Below, in pieces: positions 19,777-29,470 of a stretch of DNA of 64,000 bases. Below the pieces are notes generated by a model. That model did no database searches. It saw nothing but the letters and a program-made list of their open reading frames with translations, and was not told the DNA's origin. The position numbers and the translations under genes are program-made. How positions within the stretch are numbered: position 1 is the first letter of the stretch; each line of letters begins with the position of its first letter. This DNA is from a virus: IMG/VR virus record IMGVR_UViG_3300048929_000433, positions 1 through 64,000 of that record; one strand, 5' to 3'.

Positions 19777-20069
19777 GCTGCGATCTCCGCGCGCACGAGT
19801 CGGTAGGCGCCGCGCGTGCCGGCACCATCGCCACTGATCTGAACGTCGGTCCCCGCCAGCATGCAGTTGATCTGGTAAATGTGCTGGCGGATCGTGTTAC
19901 GGCTGATGGTCTCGTCATCGAGGTGAGCGATGATACCCTCGACGGTGATGCCGGGATGATTGCTGACGCAGTCATAAATCGCCGCCTTTTTGGCCGGCAG
20001 ATAAATGCCCTCGCGCAAACTCGACGGCAGCGGCTGCTTGCACCGCGGACATAGACCGACGCGACTCAT
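19773..20069 (-). CDS. putative winged-helix DNA-binding protein (98 aa)
   Basis: N-terminal CPRC, then ETISRNTIRQHIYQIN (OmpR/PhoB-like recognition-helix flavour). Confidence 0.5.
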   Translation of the reverse strand: MSRVGLCPRCKQPLPSSLREGIYLPAKKAAIYDCVSNHPGITVEGIIAHLDDETISRNTIRQHIYQINCMLAGTDVQISGDGAGTRGAYRLVRAEIAA

Positions 20070-20389
20070 AGTCCCTTCTCCCTTTCCAACAGTTGATCGG
20101 CGACGGCGCCGATGATGCTCAATGGATTGTTCTGAGAGTCGCGCGTGATGGCGTGCGCGATGCTCTCGACCAGGACTTCATGTTGAAAGTTGAGCGACAT
20201 CAGGATGGCGGCGTCGCGCGCCATCGCCTCGATCGCTTCGCCGGAACGGCCAGCTCCGATGAATACTTCGGAGATCCGGCCGGTCGAGAAACGTCCGAAC
20301 GAAACCAGGTGGCCACGCGTCAGGCCGCCCCATGGTAGTTCGAACGTTTCGCAACCCCGGCGTTGCGGCAATATCAGGCGCTCGGTCAC
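20066..20389 (-). CDS. hypothetical protein (107 aa, GTG start)
   Basis: GTG at 20389 overlaps the GcrA-like stop (GTGA), with GGAGG 6 nt upstream. Confidence 0.5.
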   Translation of the reverse strand: MTERLILPQRRGCETFELPWGGLTRGHLVSFGRFSTGRISEVFIGAGRSGEAIEAMARDAAILMSLNFQHEVLVESIAHAITRDSQNNPLSIIGAVADQLLEREKGL

Positions 20390-20898
20390 AGGCGCCTCCG
20401 CATCGGTACGTATTGCGTAGCGGGGATGTGCACCTTGCGATCGTGCCAGATGCAATAGGACGAACCTTCGACCTTCGGTTCGCTGCAACAGGCGAACGGG
20501 TAATCGTCATAGAGCCAGCGGCACAGGCTGATGTCCTGGCGAATGATCGGCAGCGTCGCCACCCGCAAATGGCTGCGGTCGACCTGGATCGAAGGTGGCC
20601 GGGCTGGCGCCGAAACCGCGACCGGTGACACGATGCCCGTGCGAGCGCGAGATGGTCGCGGCTTGTACTGCGGCTTCGGCAGCTCGCGAGATGGCAGCTT
20701 CAACCGGATAGCCTTACCGATCACCTGGTTGCGCGAGATCGGCACATCGAACTCGGCGCTGAGGATGGTGGCGATCTGGCGGGCGCTGTGCTGGGGGCGC
20801 AGCGCAATCAACCGCTCGGTCAATTCGGGCTTGGTGAGCCACGGCCCGCTGTCCTTGTTGCGGCTCCGGGGGTTGGTTCGGCGGCGATTTCGGGCCAT
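20386..20898 (-). CDS. gcrA: GcrA-family cell-cycle regulator homologue
   Basis: N-terminal HTH SARQIATILSAEFDVPISRNQVIGKAIRLKL and C-terminal CRW...ACC...GSSYCIWH, as in GcrA. Confidence 0.82.
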   Translation of the reverse strand: MARNRRRTNPRSRNKDSGPWLTKPELTERLIALRPQHSARQIATILSAEFDVPISRNQVIGKAIRLKLPSRELPKPQYKPRPSRARTGIVSPVAVSAPARPPSIQVDRSHLRVATLPIIRQDISLCRWLYDDYPFACCSEPKVEGSSYCIWHDRKVHIPATQYVPMRRRL

Positions 20899-22754: not shown

Positions 22755-23345
22755 ATGAAGATCTGTCGAGCGTACATCGAAAACATGCCGGGCAGCCCTT
22801 ACTCGCAGAGCGCGATGCACCGGACCGAAATGAAGGACCGGGAATCCCACGACGACTTTGATGAACGGACCTGGCTGGAGAAGTGCACCGTGAACTCGGA
22901 AGGGCACATCGCGATCCCGGCCATGGCTGCGAAGCAATGCGTTGATACAGCAGCGCAAAAGTTGGGAATGAAAATCCCCGGCCGCCGCGGCGCCACCTAC
23001 AAAAACTACTTCGCTTCTGGCGTGATCTCGCAGCGTGACATCGTTATTTCGGCCAACGGAAAGCCTCTGACCAAGACCGACGCCGAGAAGGTGGTGATCA
23101 ACGCCAACGCCGACGGTGTCCGCGGCAGCGGCAAGCGGGTGACCCGGCGCTTCCCGTCATTCCCAAAATGGAACGGGGTATTCGAGTTCCTAATCACCGA
23201 CGACATCATCACCACTGAGGTGTTCGAAACCCACGTCAAGGCCGGCGGCATCATTGTCGCGATCGGCCGCTTCCGCGCCGAGAAGGGCGGAACCAACGGC
23301 CGGTTCCTGGTGAAGAAATTCGAGTGGGAGGATTTCCAGCTGTGA
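22755..23345 (+). CDS. hypothetical protein (196 aa)
   Basis: Track ORF. Confidence 0.65.
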   Translation: MKICRAYIENMPGSPYSQSAMHRTEMKDRESHDDFDERTWLEKCTVNSEGHIAIPAMAAKQCVDTAAQKLGMKIPGRRGATYKNYFASGVISQRDIVISANGKPLTKTDAEKVVINANADGVRGSGKRVTRRFPSFPKWNGVFEFLITDDIITTEVFETHVKAGGIIVAIGRFRAEKGGTNGRFLVKKFEWEDFQL

Positions 23346-23486
23346 TTCTCAGCGCAGCACACCTCGCCTCCCCGCTCCGCCGCGCGCCGCATCGCGCCGC
23401 TCCGTACCGCTGCGCCCCGCATCACATTGCTGCGCTCCGCGTCTCGGCGCTTCGCTTCGCTCCGCAACTCAACGCAACGTCATTTT
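23346..23486 (+). repeat. single C-rich/G-poor module (short version of the 24023-25175 tract)
   Basis: No stop trinucleotide on the + strand. Contains the GCTCCGC motif (and a GCTCCGT variant) and ends in CAACGCAACGTCATTTTA. Confidence 0.75.
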
Positions 23487-23500
23487 AGGACAGATCGGAA

Positions 23501-24022
23501 ATGACCAAGACCTTCGAGCGATCAGAAATCACCGATACAATTGTTCGTTACCTAGCCGGCCATCCCAAGGGCAGCCGGGTCAGCTACGCCGACCTTTCCA
23601 GCCAGGCGGCCTGCGATATCCAGGCCGGCGACGGCCACCTCCAGTACGCTAAGAAGATCCTGGAAAAGGAACACCTGCAGGTATGGGTGGCCATCAAGCC
23701 TGGCGCCGGCATCAAGCGGTTGACCGACCGCGAGATCGCCGAGCGGATCCCGAACTGGCACCTCCGCGGCGCCCGCAACAAGCTGAAACGCGGCGATAAC
23801 GAAAGCCGCATTGTCGAGACGTCGCAGCTGTCGATCGATGAGCAGGCCCGCTTCTCGGTCAACTCGATCCAACAGCAGCTGGCGCTGCAGACCCTGTCTA
23901 AGTCGACGATGCAGCGCTTGGAAAAGGTCGCCCGCGGCAAGTCGAATGATTTGCCGGCCTTCAACGCGGTCGAATGGGCGTTCGCCCTGATGCCGCGCCG
24001 TCAGAAGGATGCCGGAAAATGA
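23501..24022 (+). CDS. hypothetical protein (173 aa)
   Basis: Track ORF. Confidence 0.65.
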   Translation: MTKTFERSEITDTIVRYLAGHPKGSRVSYADLSSQAACDIQAGDGHLQYAKKILEKEHLQVWVAIKPGAGIKRLTDREIAERIPNWHLRGARNKLKRGDNESRIVETSQLSIDEQARFSVNSIQQQLALQTLSKSTMQRLEKVARGKSNDLPAFNAVEWAFALMPRRQKDAGK

Positions 24023-25175
24023 AGTCTCAGCTTCGCTCCGCGATGTTCCGCTCCGCCCCACTGCTCAGTGCGGCGCTGCGCGTCACGTCGCGGCGCGTCG
24101 CCCCGCTTCGCTTCTCACCTCTACGCAACGAAATTGTCTTGTTCCATTTTTCGGCGCAACGCTTCTCGTCTCGCCACTACGCTACGCCGCTCGTCACTGC
24201 GCACTGCAACGCAACGCCGCCCAATGTCCTCTCAGCTCTACACTGCACCCCGCGCCGCGGCTCACCACCTCGCACGGCATCACTTCTCATCTCTCCTCAA
24301 CGCCACGCAACAATTTACTTTATTCATTTCCGTCGCACCGCATCTCTACGCGCCACCTCTCAGCACCACGCTCCTCTCCACATCACGTCACCGCGTCTCG
24401 CCTCACCTCACGACACAACGCAACGATTTCGTTTGGCAATTTTTGCCACGCAACGCCACTCCGCACAGCGCTCCGCTCCTCGCGGCCTCTCCGCTCACCG
24501 CTCGGCATCCCTCCGCAACGCCTCACCACTCCCTGCCCCGTCGCACCCCGCCCCACTCCGCAGCACCCCGCCACACGACACGTCTCGACGCAACGATTTT
24601 CATTTTGGTTTTTACTCCGCTGTGCATCTCGTCACCACGCTTCGCGTCTCAGCACTCCACTCCGCATCTCATCGCCACACATCGTATCGCAGCACGGTGC
24701 ATCCCGACACGACGCAACGTTTTTCATTTGGCAGTGGCGATTTTGCTGGCGCAACGCCTCACGTCTCAGCGCCTCGCACCGCACTACGCCACACCGCAAC
24801 GCAACGCATCTCTCGGCACCGCTCCGCTTCTCAGCGCTACACAACGCAACGCCATGCCGCTCCGCGCTCGACTTCACTCCGCGCCACAACGTGCCGCGCC
24901 TCTACGCATGGCTGCACAGCTCAACTCAGCTCGACGCAACGATTTTGTTTTTATGCTTTCCGCGCCGCACCTCAACGCGCCACATCGCATCGCCCGGCAC
25001 CTCGTCACAACACGACACGACGCTCCGATATACTTTATTTATTTCCATCGCATCGCTTCTCAGCTCAGCGCTCCGCCGCGCGACACGACACCGCACGCCA
25101 CCCCGCTTCTCAGCGCTTCGCGACGCACCGCAGCTCCGCTCATCGCACCACAATGCAACGCCACATCTCCAAGAG
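24023..25175 (+). repeat. 1.15-kb strand-asymmetric C-rich modular tract, stop-free in all three forward frames; judged non-coding
   Basis: No TAA, TAG or TGA in any register. Recurrent ACGCAACG, GCTCCGC and TCTCAGC words. Seven T-rich punctuation blocks. Confidence 0.85.
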
Positions 25176-25190
25176 TAACGGAGGATTCTA

Positions 25191-25502
25191 ATGGCTGAAC
25201 GCGCTCATCTCGAACGGCTCTCCCGCGAATTGGTCGACGCCGGCTTGCTGGTCGAGGCAGGCTGGATTGGGCTGCGGATCGCCTGCGACCTCCATGACGC
25301 ACCGAAACAGCAGCTTGAGGACATGCGCAATGCATTCTTTGCCGGCGCGCAGCACACCTTCCATTCGATCATGAACATCCTGGAGCCCGGCGCCGAGCCG
25401 ACCGAGGCCGACCTGCAGCGCATGACCAACATCGATCAGGAACTACGCCGCTTTATCGAGGACTTCGAAGTCCGGCACATCAAAACTGTCGGCACAGCGT
25501 GA
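25191..25502 (+). CDS. hypothetical protein (103 aa)
   Basis: Track ORF with GGAGG 8 nt upstream. Confidence 0.65.
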   Translation: MAERAHLERLSRELVDAGLLVEAGWIGLRIACDLHDAPKQQLEDMRNAFFAGAQHTFHSIMNILEPGAEPTEADLQRMTNIDQELRRFIEDFEVRHIKTVGTA

Positions 25503-25511
25503 GTAAATGCA

Positions 25512-25751
25512 ATGAGAGAGTACAGCGTAATCGCAACCCCGTTCGAGGCAACACCATTTAGCGAGCGCCTGGCACTTCACATGGTGTCCATTTCAGTCTG
25601 GCCGCTAAAGATCGATGATCGAATCTCGGTCCTGATGACCGCGCTCGGGATCGAGATCCTCCCCCAGGTCGAGACTGACGATCAGGTCGAGGCTGTCCTG
25701 GATCAGCTTCGGATCCAGATGAAACTGGCCCGGTGGCGCAATCAGCTATGA
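25512..25751 (+). CDS. hypothetical protein (79 aa)
   Basis: Track ORF. Confidence 0.55.
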   Translation: MREYSVIATPFEATPFSERLALHMVSISVWPLKIDDRISVLMTALGIEILPQVETDDQVEAVLDQLRIQMKLARWRNQL

Positions 25752-28642: not shown

Positions 28643-28878
28643 AGCGAGAATTGATTGCGATGCGGTTGGCCGACATGGTTCGCGTTCACCCGGACCAGAT
28701 CGTCGAACACTGTTCAGCATGTGGCGCCGAGGTTGGCGTCTATCCGTCAGGCCAGAAGATCATGCGGCATTATCGTGACGTCGTGCTGGTTTGCCAGGTA
28801 TGCCGCCCGCCAGGACCGAACGCCAAGCTGGCGCCCGGCGCCGAGCTGGAGCCGCTCCAATCGTACCGGAAGCAATAG
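28639..28878 (+). CDS. zinc-ribbon-like small protein (79 aa)
   Basis: CSACG ... CQVC pattern; ATGA overlap start. Confidence 0.55.
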   Translation: MKRELIAMRLADMVRVHPDQIVEHCSACGAEVGVYPSGQKIMRHYRDVVLVCQVCRPPGPNAKLAPGAELEPLQSYRKQ

Positions 28879-28880
28879 CG

Positions 28881-29126
28881 ATGCAATCGTGGGAGCGATC
28901 AGCCGCCAGTCGCGCCATGAGCATCGATTTTCGGTACCGCACATCGATGCCAGTTCGCGACATGCATCACGATGGTCGCATCGTGTTTTGGGTCGACATC
29001 TATGGCTGGACCGGCAAGGACGTCTGCAAGGTACCCGGCGGGTACGATCCAATGGTGCGCGCCGTGCGCCGGCTCGGGCTGGATCCAGATCGCTATCAAG
29101 CCTGGCTATGGGATGCCGATGTATGA
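28881..29126 (+). CDS. hypothetical protein (81 aa)
   Basis: Internal ATG (MQSWERS), 2 nt after the preceding stop. Confidence 0.5.
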   Translation: MQSWERSAASRAMSIDFRYRTSMPVRDMHHDGRIVFWVDIYGWTGKDVCKVPGGYDPMVRAVRRLGLDPDRYQAWLWDADV

Positions 29127-29470
29127 GCACGATGACCGACGTCAGCGAACAATGGCGACCTGTGGTTGGCTTTGAAGAATTTTACGAAGTCTCCGATCAT
29201 GGTCGAGTACGAAGCCGTGATCGTGTGGTCATTATTAGAAATGCGCACGCGCGAAAAGTACCAGCGCATATCTTGCCGCTTACTCCAAATGGCAAGAGTG
29301 GACGCGTGCGAGTCAATCTGTGTCATCACGGTTTAGAAGCCGGTCGCGATGTTCACCTCCTGATTTTGGAAGCTTTTCGCGGACCGCGGCCAGAAGGTGC
29401 AAAGGCGCGCTATCTTAATGGTCAGTCTGGCGACAATCGCCTCGACAACTTGATCTGGGAAATCAAATGA
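29123..29470 (+). CDS. NUMOD4/HNH_3-type homing-endonuclease-like protein (115 aa)
   Basis: WRPVVGFEEFYEVSDHGRVRS (NUMOD4-like) and ...ARYLNGQSGDNRLDNLIW (HNH-like, first His replaced by Tyr). ATGA overlap start inside track ORF 28655..29470. Confidence 0.7.
   Translation: MSTMTDVSEQWRPVVGFEEFYEVSDHGRVRSRDRVVIIRNAHARKVPAHILPLTPNGKSGRVRVNLCHHGLEAGRDVHLLILEAFRGPRPEGAKARYLNGQSGDNRLDNLIWEIK

What the first reader, a model, noticed from the sequence alone, without database searches (positions are those of the whole stretch)
24023..25175. 1.15-kb C-rich, G-poor modular tract with no stop codon in any forward frame, inside the rightward operon
Between the stop of 23501..24022 and the RBS of 25191..25502 lie 1,153 nt with no TAA, TAG or TGA trinucleotide in any register on the + strand. 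This is why the ORF track shows three fully overlapping ORFs of 376-405 aa (23974.., 24009.., 24068..).

None of the three looks coding. They are low-complexity R/S/P/A/H/T strings, have no RBS, and all three frames are equally open.

The cause is extreme strand asymmetry. By eye, C is about 45-55% and G is under 20% and occurs mostly as CpG. Purine-purine steps are rare.

The tract is structured rather than random:
- A small vocabulary of words recurs: ACGCAACG-like at least 15 times, GCTCCGC about 12 times, and TCTCAGC about 10 times.
- Seven T-rich punctuation blocks occur near 24131, 24311, 24425, 24595, 24718, 24941 and 25028, spaced 87-223 nt apart. Most are introduced by (G)ACGCAACGATTTT.
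- This pattern indicates a diverged tandem array of about 7-8 modules.

Because the tract lies within a + strand operon, it would be transcribed as C-rich, G-poor and presumably unstructured RNA, which is the defining property of Rho-utilisation (rut) sites.

Hypotheses:
- (a) A giant Rho-dependent attenuator separates immediate-early from delayed genes and requires phage antitermination.
- (b) The RNA acts as a decoy or sponge for Rho or another C/U-binding factor.
- (c) The tract has a DNA-level role, such as a protein-binding or centromere-like array. Its complementary strand is G-rich and R-loop-prone if transcribed leftward.
Basis: partly seen in the sequence, partly recalled or inferred. 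Interest (0 to 1): 0.85.

Follow-up and report, generated by a model that had tools for sequence, protein, structure and literature searches.

The report
Phage VIPR guide-RNA array
The C-rich, stop-free tract is most likely an array of five-base-repeat guide RNAs for a small CRISPR-like phage protein encoded next to it (a VIPR system, first described in 2026), which phages use to silence rival phages; this copy uses C-x-C as its fixed triplet where the published systems use G-G-pyrimidine.

Summary
Window 24023-25175 has no TAA, TAG or TGA for 1,156 nt, with C at 43% and G at 19%.

The tract is a degenerate pentanucleotide repeat, (C-D-C-N-N)n, with about 229 units held in register. Every trinucleotide therefore contains a C, so stops and start codons cannot occur.

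A shorter array of the same kind lies at 23346-23488. The two arrays bracket two genes:
- 22755-23345 encodes a 196-aa protein whose model has a Cas7/Csm3 RAMP fold and weak similarity to the SUSP1 Vipr protein.
- 23501-24022 encodes a winged-helix protein.

This is the architecture of VIPR systems described in two 2026 bioRxiv preprints: a Vipr RAMP, a vap accessory gene, and flanking vrRNAs made of pentanucleotide repeats. In those systems the NN pairs read DNA with a one-base skip.

In related loci from soil metagenomes and IMG/VR, the arrays almost always abut a Vipr homologue. The one-base-skip code finds real targets. The first guide of the upstream array matches 12-13 consecutive repeats in a TSCPD-domain gene of eight other viral contigs, with the skipped base at the wobble position. 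The phage's own copy of that gene matches only 20 of 24 bases.

No target was found for the downstream tract itself. The Rho and centromere ideas are not needed. I call it a new member of a known kind, with a variant motif (C-D-C, not GGY).

The parts
22755..23345 (+). vipr: 196-aa RAMP (Cas7-like) protein, the likely partner that binds one pentamer per protomer
   Evidence: The AlphaFold2 model has pLDDT 90. The top Foldseek PDB hits are Cas7/Csm3 subunits of type III and VII CRISPR complexes, at E 6e-7 and probability 1.0. BFVD hits are viral RAMP-like proteins with TM 0.60-0.66. The family profile hits PDB 36pp_D, 'SUSP1 Vipr protein', at E 0.15. hhalign against the SUSP2 Vipr gives E 1e-4 and probability 58% over the thumb-to-G-loop stretch. 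The glycine-rich loop GRFRAEKGGTNGRF is conserved.
23346..23488 (+). upstream vrRNA array: about 27 C-D-C-N-N repeats ending in CAACGCAACGTCATTTT
   Evidence: It shows period-5 C. It is stop-free for 143 nt.
23348..23412 (+). first guide of the upstream array (13 repeats; NN = AG AG AC GC CC TC CG GC AT GC TC AC TG), with natural targets
   Evidence: The 10-repeat pattern has 8 exact matches in IMG/VR. These extend to 12-13 perfect repeats. All lie in a TSCPD-domain gene with the skipped base at codon position 3.
23501..24022 (+). vap-like accessory gene: 173-aa protein with an N-terminal winged helix
   Evidence: The AlphaFold2 model shows a winged helix (H-E-H-H-E-E) at residues 9-73 followed by a helical C-terminus. 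There is no Pfam, PHROG or NCBIfam match. 75 homologues were found, and in the related loci fetched the homologue lies among period-5 arrays. It is not detectably homologous to SUSP2 vap1.
24023..25175 (+). downstream vrRNA array (the finding): about 229 pentamers in register, 170 of them with C at both fixed positions (CGC 83, CAC 45, CTC 40, CCC 2), all 16 NN dinucleotides used
   Evidence: Searches give the composition, register and repeat counts. The sequence is identical or nearly so in independent ENA, Logan and JGI assemblies.
24132..24153 (+). T-rich punctuation 1, preceded by CTACGCAACG
   Evidence: No stable fold is predicted.
24312..24331 (+). T-rich punctuation 2, preceded by CCACGCAAC
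24432..24444 (+). T-rich punctuation 3, preceded by ACAACGCAACG; contains a small hairpin (UGGCAA/UUGCCA)
   Evidence: z-score -0.29, not significant.
24594..24617 (+). T-rich punctuation 4, preceded by CGACGCAACG
24717..24748 (+). T-rich punctuation 5, preceded by CGACGCAACG
24939..24961 (+). T-rich punctuation 6, preceded by CGACGCAACG
25028..25049 (+). T-rich punctuation 7, preceded by CGACACGACGCTCCG
20066..20389 (-). the phage's own TSCPD-like gene (107 aa), homologous to the gene targeted in other phages; it carries a partial self-match at 20199-20234
   Evidence: tblastn shows 44-57% amino-acid identity to the targeted genes. Only 20 of 24 guide positions match here, against 24-26 of 26 in the targets.

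Best explanation
The tract is the larger of two guide-RNA (vrRNA) arrays of a phage-encoded VIPR system (Viral Interference Programmable Repeat).

Proposed mechanism, by analogy with the published system:
1. The + strand is transcribed together with the vipr and vap genes.
2. The 196-aa RAMP protein (Vipr) polymerises along the RNA, one protomer per pentamer.
3. Each protomer sequesters the fixed C-D-C triplet and presents the two variable bases.
4. Runs of about 10-13 repeats then read double-stranded DNA as NNx NNx NNx, skipping every third base.
5. The complex sits on genes of competing phages and represses them.

The winged-helix protein encoded between the arrays would be the accessory Vap.

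Shown here:
- the repeat anatomy;
- the RAMP fold of the neighbouring protein;
- the tight linkage of arrays and vipr homologues in related loci;
- length changes in units of 5 nt;
- code-consistent natural targets for one guide of this phage and for guides of several relatives.

Inferred from the papers and by analogy:
- that the + strand is the RNA;
- filament assembly on the RNA;
- how the long array is cut into units;
- transcriptional silencing as the outcome.
For: 1. Repeat anatomy. The unit is a 5-nt period with two fixed C positions and two free positions.

2. Partner protein. The adjacent 196-aa protein has a Cas7/Csm3 fold and weak sequence similarity to the SUSP1/SUSP2 Vipr.

3. Base-reading residues. 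In that alignment the residues that read the fixed triplet in SUSP1 change in a way that fits C-D-C:
- D177, which reads G1, aligns with an invariant Arg (R172).
- R138, which reads G2, aligns with an invariant Phe (F133).
- W178 aligns with F173.
- R179, the pyrimidine-pocket residue for Y3, is kept as R174.
These come, with the SUSP1 roles taken from 10.64898/2026.04.26.720927.

4. Linkage in relatives. 40 non-redundant related loci hold 89 arrays (27 kb in all), C-rich on the strand that encodes the genes, around the vipr and vap homologues.

5. Linkage in IMG/VR. A blind scan for (CDCNN)x14 found that most of the non-microsatellite arrays among the 80 loci listed abut a vipr homologue of 31-65% identity, even where vap is absent.

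6. Reference system. In phage SUSP2 the YNNGG arrays are co-oriented with vipr and lie upstream and downstream of the gene pair, as here.

7. Code test across the family. Eight perfect consecutive NN pairs with a 1-nt skip gave 20 hits. Skips of 0, 2 and 3 gave 1-6 hits, and reversed or swapped controls gave 1-4.

8. Code test in this window. The first guide of the upstream array has 8 exact IMG/VR matches. They extend to 12-13 repeats in one conserved TSCPD-domain gene with the skipped base at the wobble position. The phage's own homologue matches 20 of 24.

9. Length changes. L035 and L039 are nearly identical over about 6.6 kb. In that stretch they differ by 2 substitutions and one 35-nt indel inside the array.

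10. Published description. The system, its 1-nt skip rule, its wobble alignment and its alternative repeat consensus forms are described in 10.64898/2026.04.26.720920.
Against: - The fixed triplet is C-D-C, not GGY. It fits the published alternative 'YNNNG' only where the middle base is G.
- Sequence similarity to a characterised Vipr is weak: E 0.15 by HMMER and 58% probability by hhalign.
- The 3' ends of units show a recurrent (G)ACGCAACG plus a T-rich block, but no stable predicted structure. SUSP1 tails form a pseudoknot.
- No sigma-70-like promoter or terminator lies inside the tract, so how units are released is unknown.
- Some units hold 30-38 repeats, more than the 9-16 described.
- Six 9-10-repeat sub-windows of the downstream tract gave no exact IMG/VR match. 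Target evidence in this window therefore rests on the upstream array.
- Target matching cannot tell which strand of the array is transcribed, because a double-stranded target holds both senses.
- p173 is not detectably related to SUSP2 vap1.
Confidence: 0.88

Rival explanations
1. The tract is a Rho-dependent attenuator, or a Rho sponge. A long untranslated, C-rich, G-poor RNA inside the early operon would load Rho and terminate transcription unless the phage antiterminates.
For: - C is 43% and G is 19% over 1.15 kb.
- No strong structure is predicted around the punctuation blocks.
- The position just downstream of a Cro/AlpA-like gene recalls lambda tR1 (my own knowledge).
- (CGCNN)n also happens to satisfy the G-10/Y-1/G+1 elemental pause consensus at every repeat (my own knowledge of that consensus, not tested).
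Against: - Rho needs C-richness, not a strict 5-nt register with a non-C middle base and two free positions.
- This model does not explain why arrays travel with a RAMP gene in related loci.
- It does not explain why the middle base is lineage-specific.
- It does not explain why the free positions match other phages' genes under a 1-nt skip code.
- Rho loading may still occur as a side effect.
Confidence: 0.05
2. The tract is a real protein-coding gene (24019-25191, 390 aa) for an arginine-rich, low-complexity pentapeptide-repeat protein, translationally coupled to its neighbours.
For: - The ORF starts at an ATGA overlap with the vap stop and ends at a TAATG overlap with the next start.
- Gene callers annotate it.
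- Stops that are followed by an array are ATGA in 27 of 63 cases, against 59 of 279 controls.
- The last Leu codon of vipr is shifted towards CTT, TTA and CTA; the latter two create ATGA before a TGA stop.
- The T-rich blocks also lack stops.
Against: - The period is 5, not 3 or 15. Autocorrelation decays smoothly with no bump at lag 15.
- Indels between near-identical relatives are 35 and 10 nt, so the frame is not kept.
- ACGCAACG sits in different frames in different units (spacings between successive copies taken: 295, 170, 124 and 222 nt).
- The first stop after an array falls in the ATG frame in about one third of cases, which is the chance rate.
- Several such ORFs run hundreds of nt into the next gene.
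- There is no family match in Pfam, PHROGs or NCBIfam.
- The absence of stops follows from the C register alone.
Confidence: 0.03
3. The tract is a DNA-level array, such as a centromere, origin or silencer, bound in 5-bp register by the winged-helix protein p173 or by a host protein.
For: - p173 has a winged helix and lies between the arrays.
- Arrays of short tandem sites are typical of partition sites (my own knowledge).
Against: - In the IMG/VR hits with a vipr homologue, p173 homologues are often absent.
- Strict strand asymmetry and co-orientation with transcription point to a single-stranded product.
- No partition ATPase was seen near the locus, but the whole window was not scanned for one.
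- A DNA-binding array would conserve the whole site, not leave two of five positions free and informative.
Confidence: 0.03

Closest known systems
VIPR systems (Viral Interference Programmable Repeat), type II as in Escherichia phages SUSP1/SUSP2 and a Pseudomonas fulva prophage (bioRxiv 10.64898/2026.04.26.720920 and 10.64898/2026.04.26.720927)
   Same: - A small RAMP protein of about 20 kDa is paired with one accessory DNA-binding gene.
- Long flanking 'intergenic' arrays of pentanucleotide repeats are co-oriented with the genes.
- Each repeat has three fixed and two hypervariable positions.
- Guides of about 12-13 repeats match double-stranded targets as NNx, with the skipped base at the codon wobble position.
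- Targets lie in other phages, including other VIPR loci.
- The system is phage-encoded.
   Different: - The fixed triplet is C-D-C (CGC, CAC or CTC; the middle base is lineage-specific), not GGY.
- The residues that read G1 and G2 in SUSP1 are replaced.
- The array is far longer: about 229 repeats in 1.15 kb, against four vrRNAs of about 100 nt in SUSP1.
- The unit ends are an unstructured T-rich block, not a pseudoknot tail.
- No per-unit promoters are evident.
- The Vap is not detectably homologous to SUSP2 vap1.
- The host range appears to be soil Alphaproteobacteria.
Class 1 CRISPR-Cas effector backbones (Cas7/Csm3 filaments on crRNA)
   Same: - The protein shares the RAMP fold (best PDB fold hits).
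- One protomer binds per fixed-length RNA segment, with periodic base flipping (described for Vipr in 10.64898/2026.04.26.720927).
   Different: - There is no CRISPR repeat-spacer array.
- No CRISPR-type repeat-spacer array was found in or beside the locus, and none of the neighbouring proteins scanned matched a Cas family other than the RAMP fold of p196.
- The period is 5 nt, not 6.
- The guide information is non-contiguous.
TRAP-binding sites in the Bacillus trp leader (GAG/UAG triplets with 2-3-nt spacers)
   Same: Both are a protein-read RNA made of fixed triplets separated by two free bases, giving a 5-nt period (my own knowledge).
   Different: - TRAP is an unrelated ring protein.
- Its spacers carry no targeting information.
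- Its sites hold about 11 repeats and regulate attenuation in cis.
Rho utilisation (rut) sites such as lambda tR1
   Same: Both are C-rich, G-poor and largely unstructured RNA in an early phage operon.
   Different: rut sites have no strict register, no linked RAMP protein and no informative variable positions.

Membership tests
VIPR system | A Vipr protein with a RAMP fold (RRM core, glycine-rich loop, thumb) | tested here: met
   The p196 model has pLDDT 90. Its Foldseek top hits are Cas7/Csm3 at E 6e-7 and probability 1.0. BFVD hits are viral RAMP-like proteins with TM 0.60-0.66. The glycine-rich loop G171-R-F-R-x-E-K-G-G-T-N-G-R-F is conserved.
VIPR system | Sequence homology of the protein to a characterised Vipr (SUSP1) | tested here: inconclusive
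   The HMMER profile against PDB 36pp_D gives E 0.15. hhalign against SUSP2 Vipr gives E 1e-4 and probability 58% over 59 columns. tblastn against phage genomes finds nothing.
VIPR system | Tandem pentanucleotide repeats flanking vipr, with a conserved trinucleotide and a hypervariable NN, co-oriented with the gene | tested here: met
   Lag-5 autocorrelation of C is 0.58. The fixed positions are 83% and 86% C, and all 16 NN dinucleotides are used. Arrays lie on both sides of vipr and vap here and in 40 non-redundant relatives. The reference phage SUSP2 has the same orientation.
VIPR system | The conserved trinucleotide is GGY (YNNGG repeats) | tested here: not met
   The triplet is C-D-C: CGC 83, CAC 45, CTC 40, CCC 2. 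The paper allows a 'related consensus' (NNNGG, YNNNG, NNNNG). CGC-NN fits YNNNG, but CAC-NN and CTC-NN do not.
VIPR system | vrRNA units of 9-16 repeats capped by an invariant, structured 3' tail | tested here: inconclusive
   Guide-target matches span 10-13 repeats. Units end in a recurrent (G)ACGCAACG plus a T-rich block. No stable fold is predicted there, with z-scores from -0.4 to +2.1. Some units hold 30-38 repeats, which may correspond to the 'staggered arrays' mentioned in the paper.
VIPR system | An adjacent vap accessory gene, predicted to bind DNA in some types | tested here: met
   p173 lies directly after vipr and has a winged helix in its model. It is not detectably homologous to SUSP2 vap1. 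It is absent from many vipr loci found in IMG/VR.
VIPR system | NN positions match natural double-stranded DNA targets under the 1-nt skip rule, with the skipped base at the wobble position, in competing mobile elements and without full self-targeting | tested here: met
   Family-wide, a 1-nt skip gives 20 hits against 1-6 for other skips and 1-4 for controls. The window guide 23348-23412 has 8 IMG/VR targets with 12-13 perfect repeats in a TSCPD-domain gene, skipped base at codon position 3. The phage's own homologue matches 20 of 24. This was not shown for the downstream tract: six sub-windows gave no exact match.
VIPR system | vrRNAs are expressed, co-purify with Vipr, and repress targets | not testable with these tools
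   This needs small-RNA sequencing, a pull-down and a reporter assay.
CRISPR-Cas | A repeat-spacer array plus cas genes such as cas1/cas2 and a multi-subunit or single effector | tested here: not met
   No direct repeats of CRISPR type were found in or beside the locus (23000-25600). The only Cas-like protein is the stand-alone RAMP. None of the ten neighbouring proteins scanned matches a Cas family.
Rho-dependent terminator (rut site) | C-rich, G-poor unstructured RNA that causes Rho-dependent 3' ends | not testable with these tools
   The composition fits. Termination itself cannot be tested here.

The most novel reading that the evidence does not exclude
This soil-phage family may be a VIPR lineage not covered by the preprint's seven types. 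Its features would be:
- The sequestered triplet is C-D-C, with a middle base that differs between lineages (CGC, CAC-only or CTC-only) and would co-vary with the Vipr pockets.
- Guides are stored in very long continuous arrays inside an operon.
- The arrays lack structured tails.
- They begin at ATGA overlaps, as if ribosome entry or translational coupling played a part in their expression or processing.

If so, the fixed part of the VIPR code is itself evolvable, and orthogonal Vipr/vrRNA pairs exist in nature.
Probability: 0.35. Interest if true: 0.72.

Novelty: new member of a known kind. Interest (0 to 1): 0.6.

Why it matters
VIPR was described only in 2026, as a minimal RNA-guided system for recognising DNA that is proposed to predate CRISPR.

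What this locus adds:
- It shows the system in a large family of phages found in soil metagenomes, apparently of Alphaproteobacteria. 254 or more Vipr homologues are all annotated as hypothetical proteins.
- The fixed triplet is different (C-D-C), and the array is much longer than those characterised.
- The published one-base-skip code predicts real targets in this divergent family, which is independent computational support for that code.
- The matched changes in the base-reading residues point to naturally orthogonal protein/RNA pairs, which could be useful for multiplexed tools.

There is also a practical annotation point. Gene callers turn these arrays into long, arginine-rich 'hypothetical proteins', and assemblies often break inside them.

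Tried and rejected
- Rfam: the whole window gave no match at gathering thresholds.
- Tandem Repeats Finder: it reported only short fragments with periods of 10, 15 and 25. It missed the 5-nt unit because the copies are too degenerate.
- blastn of the tract against GenBank phages: no match.
- tblastn of p196 against the same phages: no match.
- Coding hypothesis: I examined ATGA overlaps, Leu codon use at the vipr stop, and where the ORFs end. ATGA is enriched about twofold. However, the frame is not conserved, and the ORF ends fall at the chance rate. I rejected this as the main explanation.
- 'The tract is more conserved than its flanks': the pair counts first suggested this. Mismatch profiles then showed mosaic blocks, with the arrays simply lying inside near-identical stretches. 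Rejected.
- The elemental pause consensus (G-10, Y-1, G+1) fits (CGCNN)n. I recorded this as an idea and did not pursue it.
- p173 structure: no significant PDB fold match beyond a generic winged helix.
- Tail structure: no signal.
- Promoter and terminator scans: nothing inside the tract.
- Targets of the downstream tract: six IMG/VR scans with 9-10-repeat patterns found nothing. Local scans found no hit above 20 of 24.
- Supplementary tables of the VIPR paper are not held. I therefore could not check whether this family is among its 667 systems, or which type it belongs to.
Full report
**1. The observation**

The + strand from 24021 to 25175 holds no TAA, TAG or TGA. This 1,156-nt gap is almost four times the next longest in the window, and shuffles of the same bases carry 23 stops on average. 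C is 42.9% and G is 18.7%, and GC skew falls to about -0.5.

C is periodic with a period of 5 nt, with autocorrelation 0.58 at lag 5 and still 0.37 at lag 30. A register-tracking pass gives the unit N-C-D-C-N:
- C sits at the two fixed positions at 83% and 86%.
- The middle base is G 50%, A 24%, T 24% and C 3%.
- The other two positions are free.

Register is held for up to 273 nt, including across one T-rich block. With a C at two of every five positions, every trinucleotide contains a C. Stop codons and ATG/GTG/TTG therefore cannot occur in any + frame, and the three open frames follow automatically. A second, shorter array of the same kind lies at 23346-23488. These two are the only such regions in 64 kb.

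**2. Context**

The two arrays bracket two genes: 22755-23345 (196 aa, here p196) and 23501-24022 (173 aa, here p173). Upstream lie an AlpA/excisionase-like gene and, on the other strand, a winged-helix regulator and a GcrA homologue. This points to an alphaproteobacterial temperate phage. The same phage, with an identical or near-identical tract, appears in independent ENA, Logan and JGI assemblies. The tract is therefore not an assembly artefact, although several contigs end inside it.

**3. Relatives**

p173 has 75 homologues. In the related loci fetched from metagenomes and genomes the homologue lies among period-5 arrays. The arrays are C-rich on the strand that encodes the genes. They fill the slots before the p196 homologue, between the two genes, and after p173. 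In total there are 89 arrays in 40 non-redundant loci, about 27 kb. The commonest words have the form CGC-NN-CGC.

I then scanned IMG/VR blind for fourteen consecutive CDCNN units. It returned pure microsatellites and degenerate arrays. Most of the degenerate arrays among the 80 loci listed abut a p196 homologue of 31-65% identity, even where p173 is absent. The middle base differs by lineage: CGC in most, CAC in L147, CTC in L134 and L145. The constant partner is therefore p196.

**4. What p196 is**

Its AlphaFold2 model is confident (pLDDT 90). The best PDB fold matches are Cas7/Csm3 backbone subunits of type III and VII CRISPR complexes, at E 6e-7 and probability 1.0. In BFVD it matches viral RAMP-like proteins of about 200 aa with TM 0.60-0.66. 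A profile of the family weakly hits PDB chain 36pp_D, 'SUSP1 Vipr protein' (E 0.15). hhalign against the SUSP2 orthologue gives E 1e-4 and probability 58% over the thumb-to-G-loop stretch.

**5. The literature**

Two 2026 bioRxiv preprints describe VIPR systems (10.64898/2026.04.26.720920 and 10.64898/2026.04.26.720927). Their main points are:
- The system consists of a phage-encoded RAMP (Vipr), usually one accessory gene (vap), and long flanking regions that encode vrRNAs.
- Each vrRNA has 9-16 pentanucleotide repeats, with a fixed GGY triplet and a hypervariable NN, followed by a 3' tail.
- One Vipr protomer binds each repeat, hides the fixed triplet and presents NN.
- NN pairs with double-stranded DNA while skipping every third target base. 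The skipped base usually falls at the codon wobble position.
- Natural targets are competing phages, including other VIPR loci.
- The outcome is transcriptional silencing.
- Seven types exist. Alternative repeat consensus forms are NNNGG, YNNNG and NNNNG. Some types have staggered arrays, and some have winged-helix or HTH Vaps.

The SUSP2 locus in GenBank shows YNNGG arrays co-oriented with vipr, both upstream and downstream of the gene pair. That is the layout seen here.

**6. Testing the code**

I took the NN bases of all C-x-C runs from every fetched locus (7,244 repeats). I searched them against 2.9 Mb of fetched sequence (both strands counted), with the arrays masked. The results for eight perfect consecutive NN pairs were:
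- 1-nt skip: 20 hits, in 17 locus pairs.
- Skips of 0, 2 or 3 nt: 1-6 hits.
- Reversed, swapped or complemented controls: 1-4 hits.

Three examples stand out:
- A guide in L156 matches 12 repeats (23 of 24 bases) antisense to the conserved FTAVEWAISLS motif at the 3' end of vap genes in several other loci. The skipped base is at the wobble position.
- L035 matches L014 over 10 of 10 repeats.
- L024 matches L044 over 10 of 10 repeats.

In these examples the guide begins at the 5' edge of a unit, just after a gene stop or a punctuation block.

For the window itself, the first ten repeats of the upstream array (NN = AG AG AC GC CC TC CG GC AT GC) gave eight exact matches in IMG/VR. All eight extend to 12-13 perfect repeats. 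All lie in one gene, on the opposite strand, with the skipped base at codon position 3. That gene carries a TSCPD domain. The phage has its own homologue at 20066-20389, 44-57% identical in protein to the targeted genes. The guide matches that copy at only 20 of 24 bases. The pattern is what a weapon against rival phages that spares its owner would look like.

Six sub-windows of the downstream tract gave no exact match. Its targets remain unknown.

**7. Which strand, and why C-D-C**

Target matches cannot tell which strand of the array is transcribed, because a duplex target holds both senses. Four observations favour the + strand:
- The arrays are co-oriented with vipr in the related loci (a few short reverse-strand runs appear) and in SUSP2.
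- The recurrent motif plus T-rich block sits at the 3' end of units.
- CGC-NN fits the published YNNNG form.
- The aligned base-reading residues change in a matching way.

On the last point, SUSP1 reads the triplet as follows, and p196 differs as shown:

| SUSP1 residue | Role in SUSP1 | Aligned residue in p196 |
|---|---|---|
| D177 | reads G1 | R172, invariant |
| R138 | salt bridge to G2 | F133, invariant |
| W178 | stacks on G2 | F173 |
| R179 | pyrimidine pocket for Y3 | R174, kept and invariant |

This fits a conserved pyrimidine at position 3, a relaxed position 2 and a new base at position 1. The inference rests on a weak alignment.

**8. Differences from the described systems**

- The fixed triplet is not GGY.
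- The array holds about 229 repeats in 1.15 kb, with some units of 30-38 repeats.
- Unit ends show no stable predicted structure.
- No sigma-70-type promoters or terminators lie inside the tract.
- p173 has a winged helix but no detectable homology to SUSP2 vap1.

**9. How the arrays evolve**

L035 and L039 are nearly identical over about 6.6 kb. In that stretch they differ by two substitutions and one 35-nt deletion in the array, between short CGCA repeats. Other clean indels are 10 and 25 nt. Length therefore changes in units of five, and the reading frame is not kept.

**10. Rivals**

*A protein-coding gene.* The features in its favour are the ATGA start overlapping the vap stop, the TAATG end, a twofold ATGA enrichment at stops followed by arrays, and a shift of the last Leu codon of vipr towards T- and A-ending codons, some of which create ATGA. 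Against it:
- There is no 3- or 15-nt period.
- Indels shift the frame.
- The conserved words sit in different frames in different units.
- ORF ends fall at the chance rate.
- There is no family match.

The ATGA enrichment is unexplained and is worth a ribosome-profiling test.

*Rho loading.* This is plausible as a side effect on such RNA, but it explains none of the specific features.

*A duplex-DNA array bound by p173.* This does not fit the strand asymmetry, or the loci that lack p173.

**11. Verdict**

The tract is most likely a vrRNA array of a VIPR system. It is a new member of a recently described kind, with a variant fixed triplet and an unusually long array. I could not check whether this family is among the preprint's 667 systems, because the supplementary tables are not held.

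Noticed in passing
window 24019-25191; P0044 and P0011: Gene callers annotate the arrays as proteins. The tract is called as a 390-aa gene in public assemblies. Some vap homologues (P0044, P0011) carry about 70-residue R/S/P/A/H/T-rich N-terminal extensions. For P0044 the alignment shows this is translated array sequence. Databases therefore hold many false 'hypothetical proteins' of this kind.
   Followed up: partly
L003, L004, L005, L006, L008 (window about 24250 and about 24547): Five independent metagenome contigs of the same phage end inside the downstream array, four of them at nearly the same point. The array seems to break short-read assembly. Many contigs that carry vipr or vap homologues are also very short.
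   Followed up: no
window 23342-23345 and 24019-24022; relatives: The stop codon before an array very often overlaps a start codon. It is ATGA in 27 of 63 cases against 59 of 279 controls, and GTGA also occurs. The last Leu codon of vipr is shifted towards T- and A-ending codons (CTT, TTA, CTA), and TTA or CTA before TGA creates ATGA. This suggests that ribosomes enter the array. The reason is unknown.
   Followed up: partly
L035:5545-5579 vs L039: Two contigs nearly identical over about 6.6 kb (2 substitutions) differ by a 35-nt indel inside the array, flanked by CGCA microhomology. Array length changes in multiples of 5 nt.
   Followed up: yes
L147, L102, L104, L106, L115 (CAC); L134, L145 (CTC): In some vipr lineages the fixed triplet is almost only CAC, and in others almost only CTC, where most lineages use CGC. 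This suggests that the middle position co-evolves with the protein.
   Followed up: no
L156:12594-12653 -> L022:1380-1415, L028, L047, L059-L064, L168, L190: [quoted passage not shown] This is VIPR against VIPR, as the paper reports for Pseudomonas.
   Followed up: yes
window 20199-20234 (- strand gene 20066-20389): The phage's own TSCPD-like gene matches its own first upstream guide at 20 of 24 bases, with the skipped base at the wobble position. This is just over the 80% NN-match threshold used in the paper. Whether it is tolerated, auto-regulatory or an escape variant is open.
   Followed up: partly
window 24023-25175: (CGCNN)n places a G ten bases before each G that follows a C. This matches the G-10/Y-1/G+1 elemental pause consensus of bacterial RNA polymerase at every repeat (my own knowledge of the consensus). 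It could slow transcription across arrays. I did not test it.
   Followed up: no
window 20386-20898 (-) and 28655-29470 (+): The phage carries a GcrA cell-cycle-regulator homologue (PF07750, E 2.5e-9) and a NUMOD4/HNH homing-endonuclease-like gene.
   Followed up: no
L073, L081, L093, L095, L112, L116, L124, L137 and others: The CDCNN scan also picked up pure pentanucleotide microsatellites, such as (CACAG)n, (CGCTT)n and (CTCTG)n, in unrelated viral contigs including giant-virus bins. They have no vipr homologue nearby. These are a different thing, and they produced false target hits until low-complexity guides were filtered out.
   Followed up: partly
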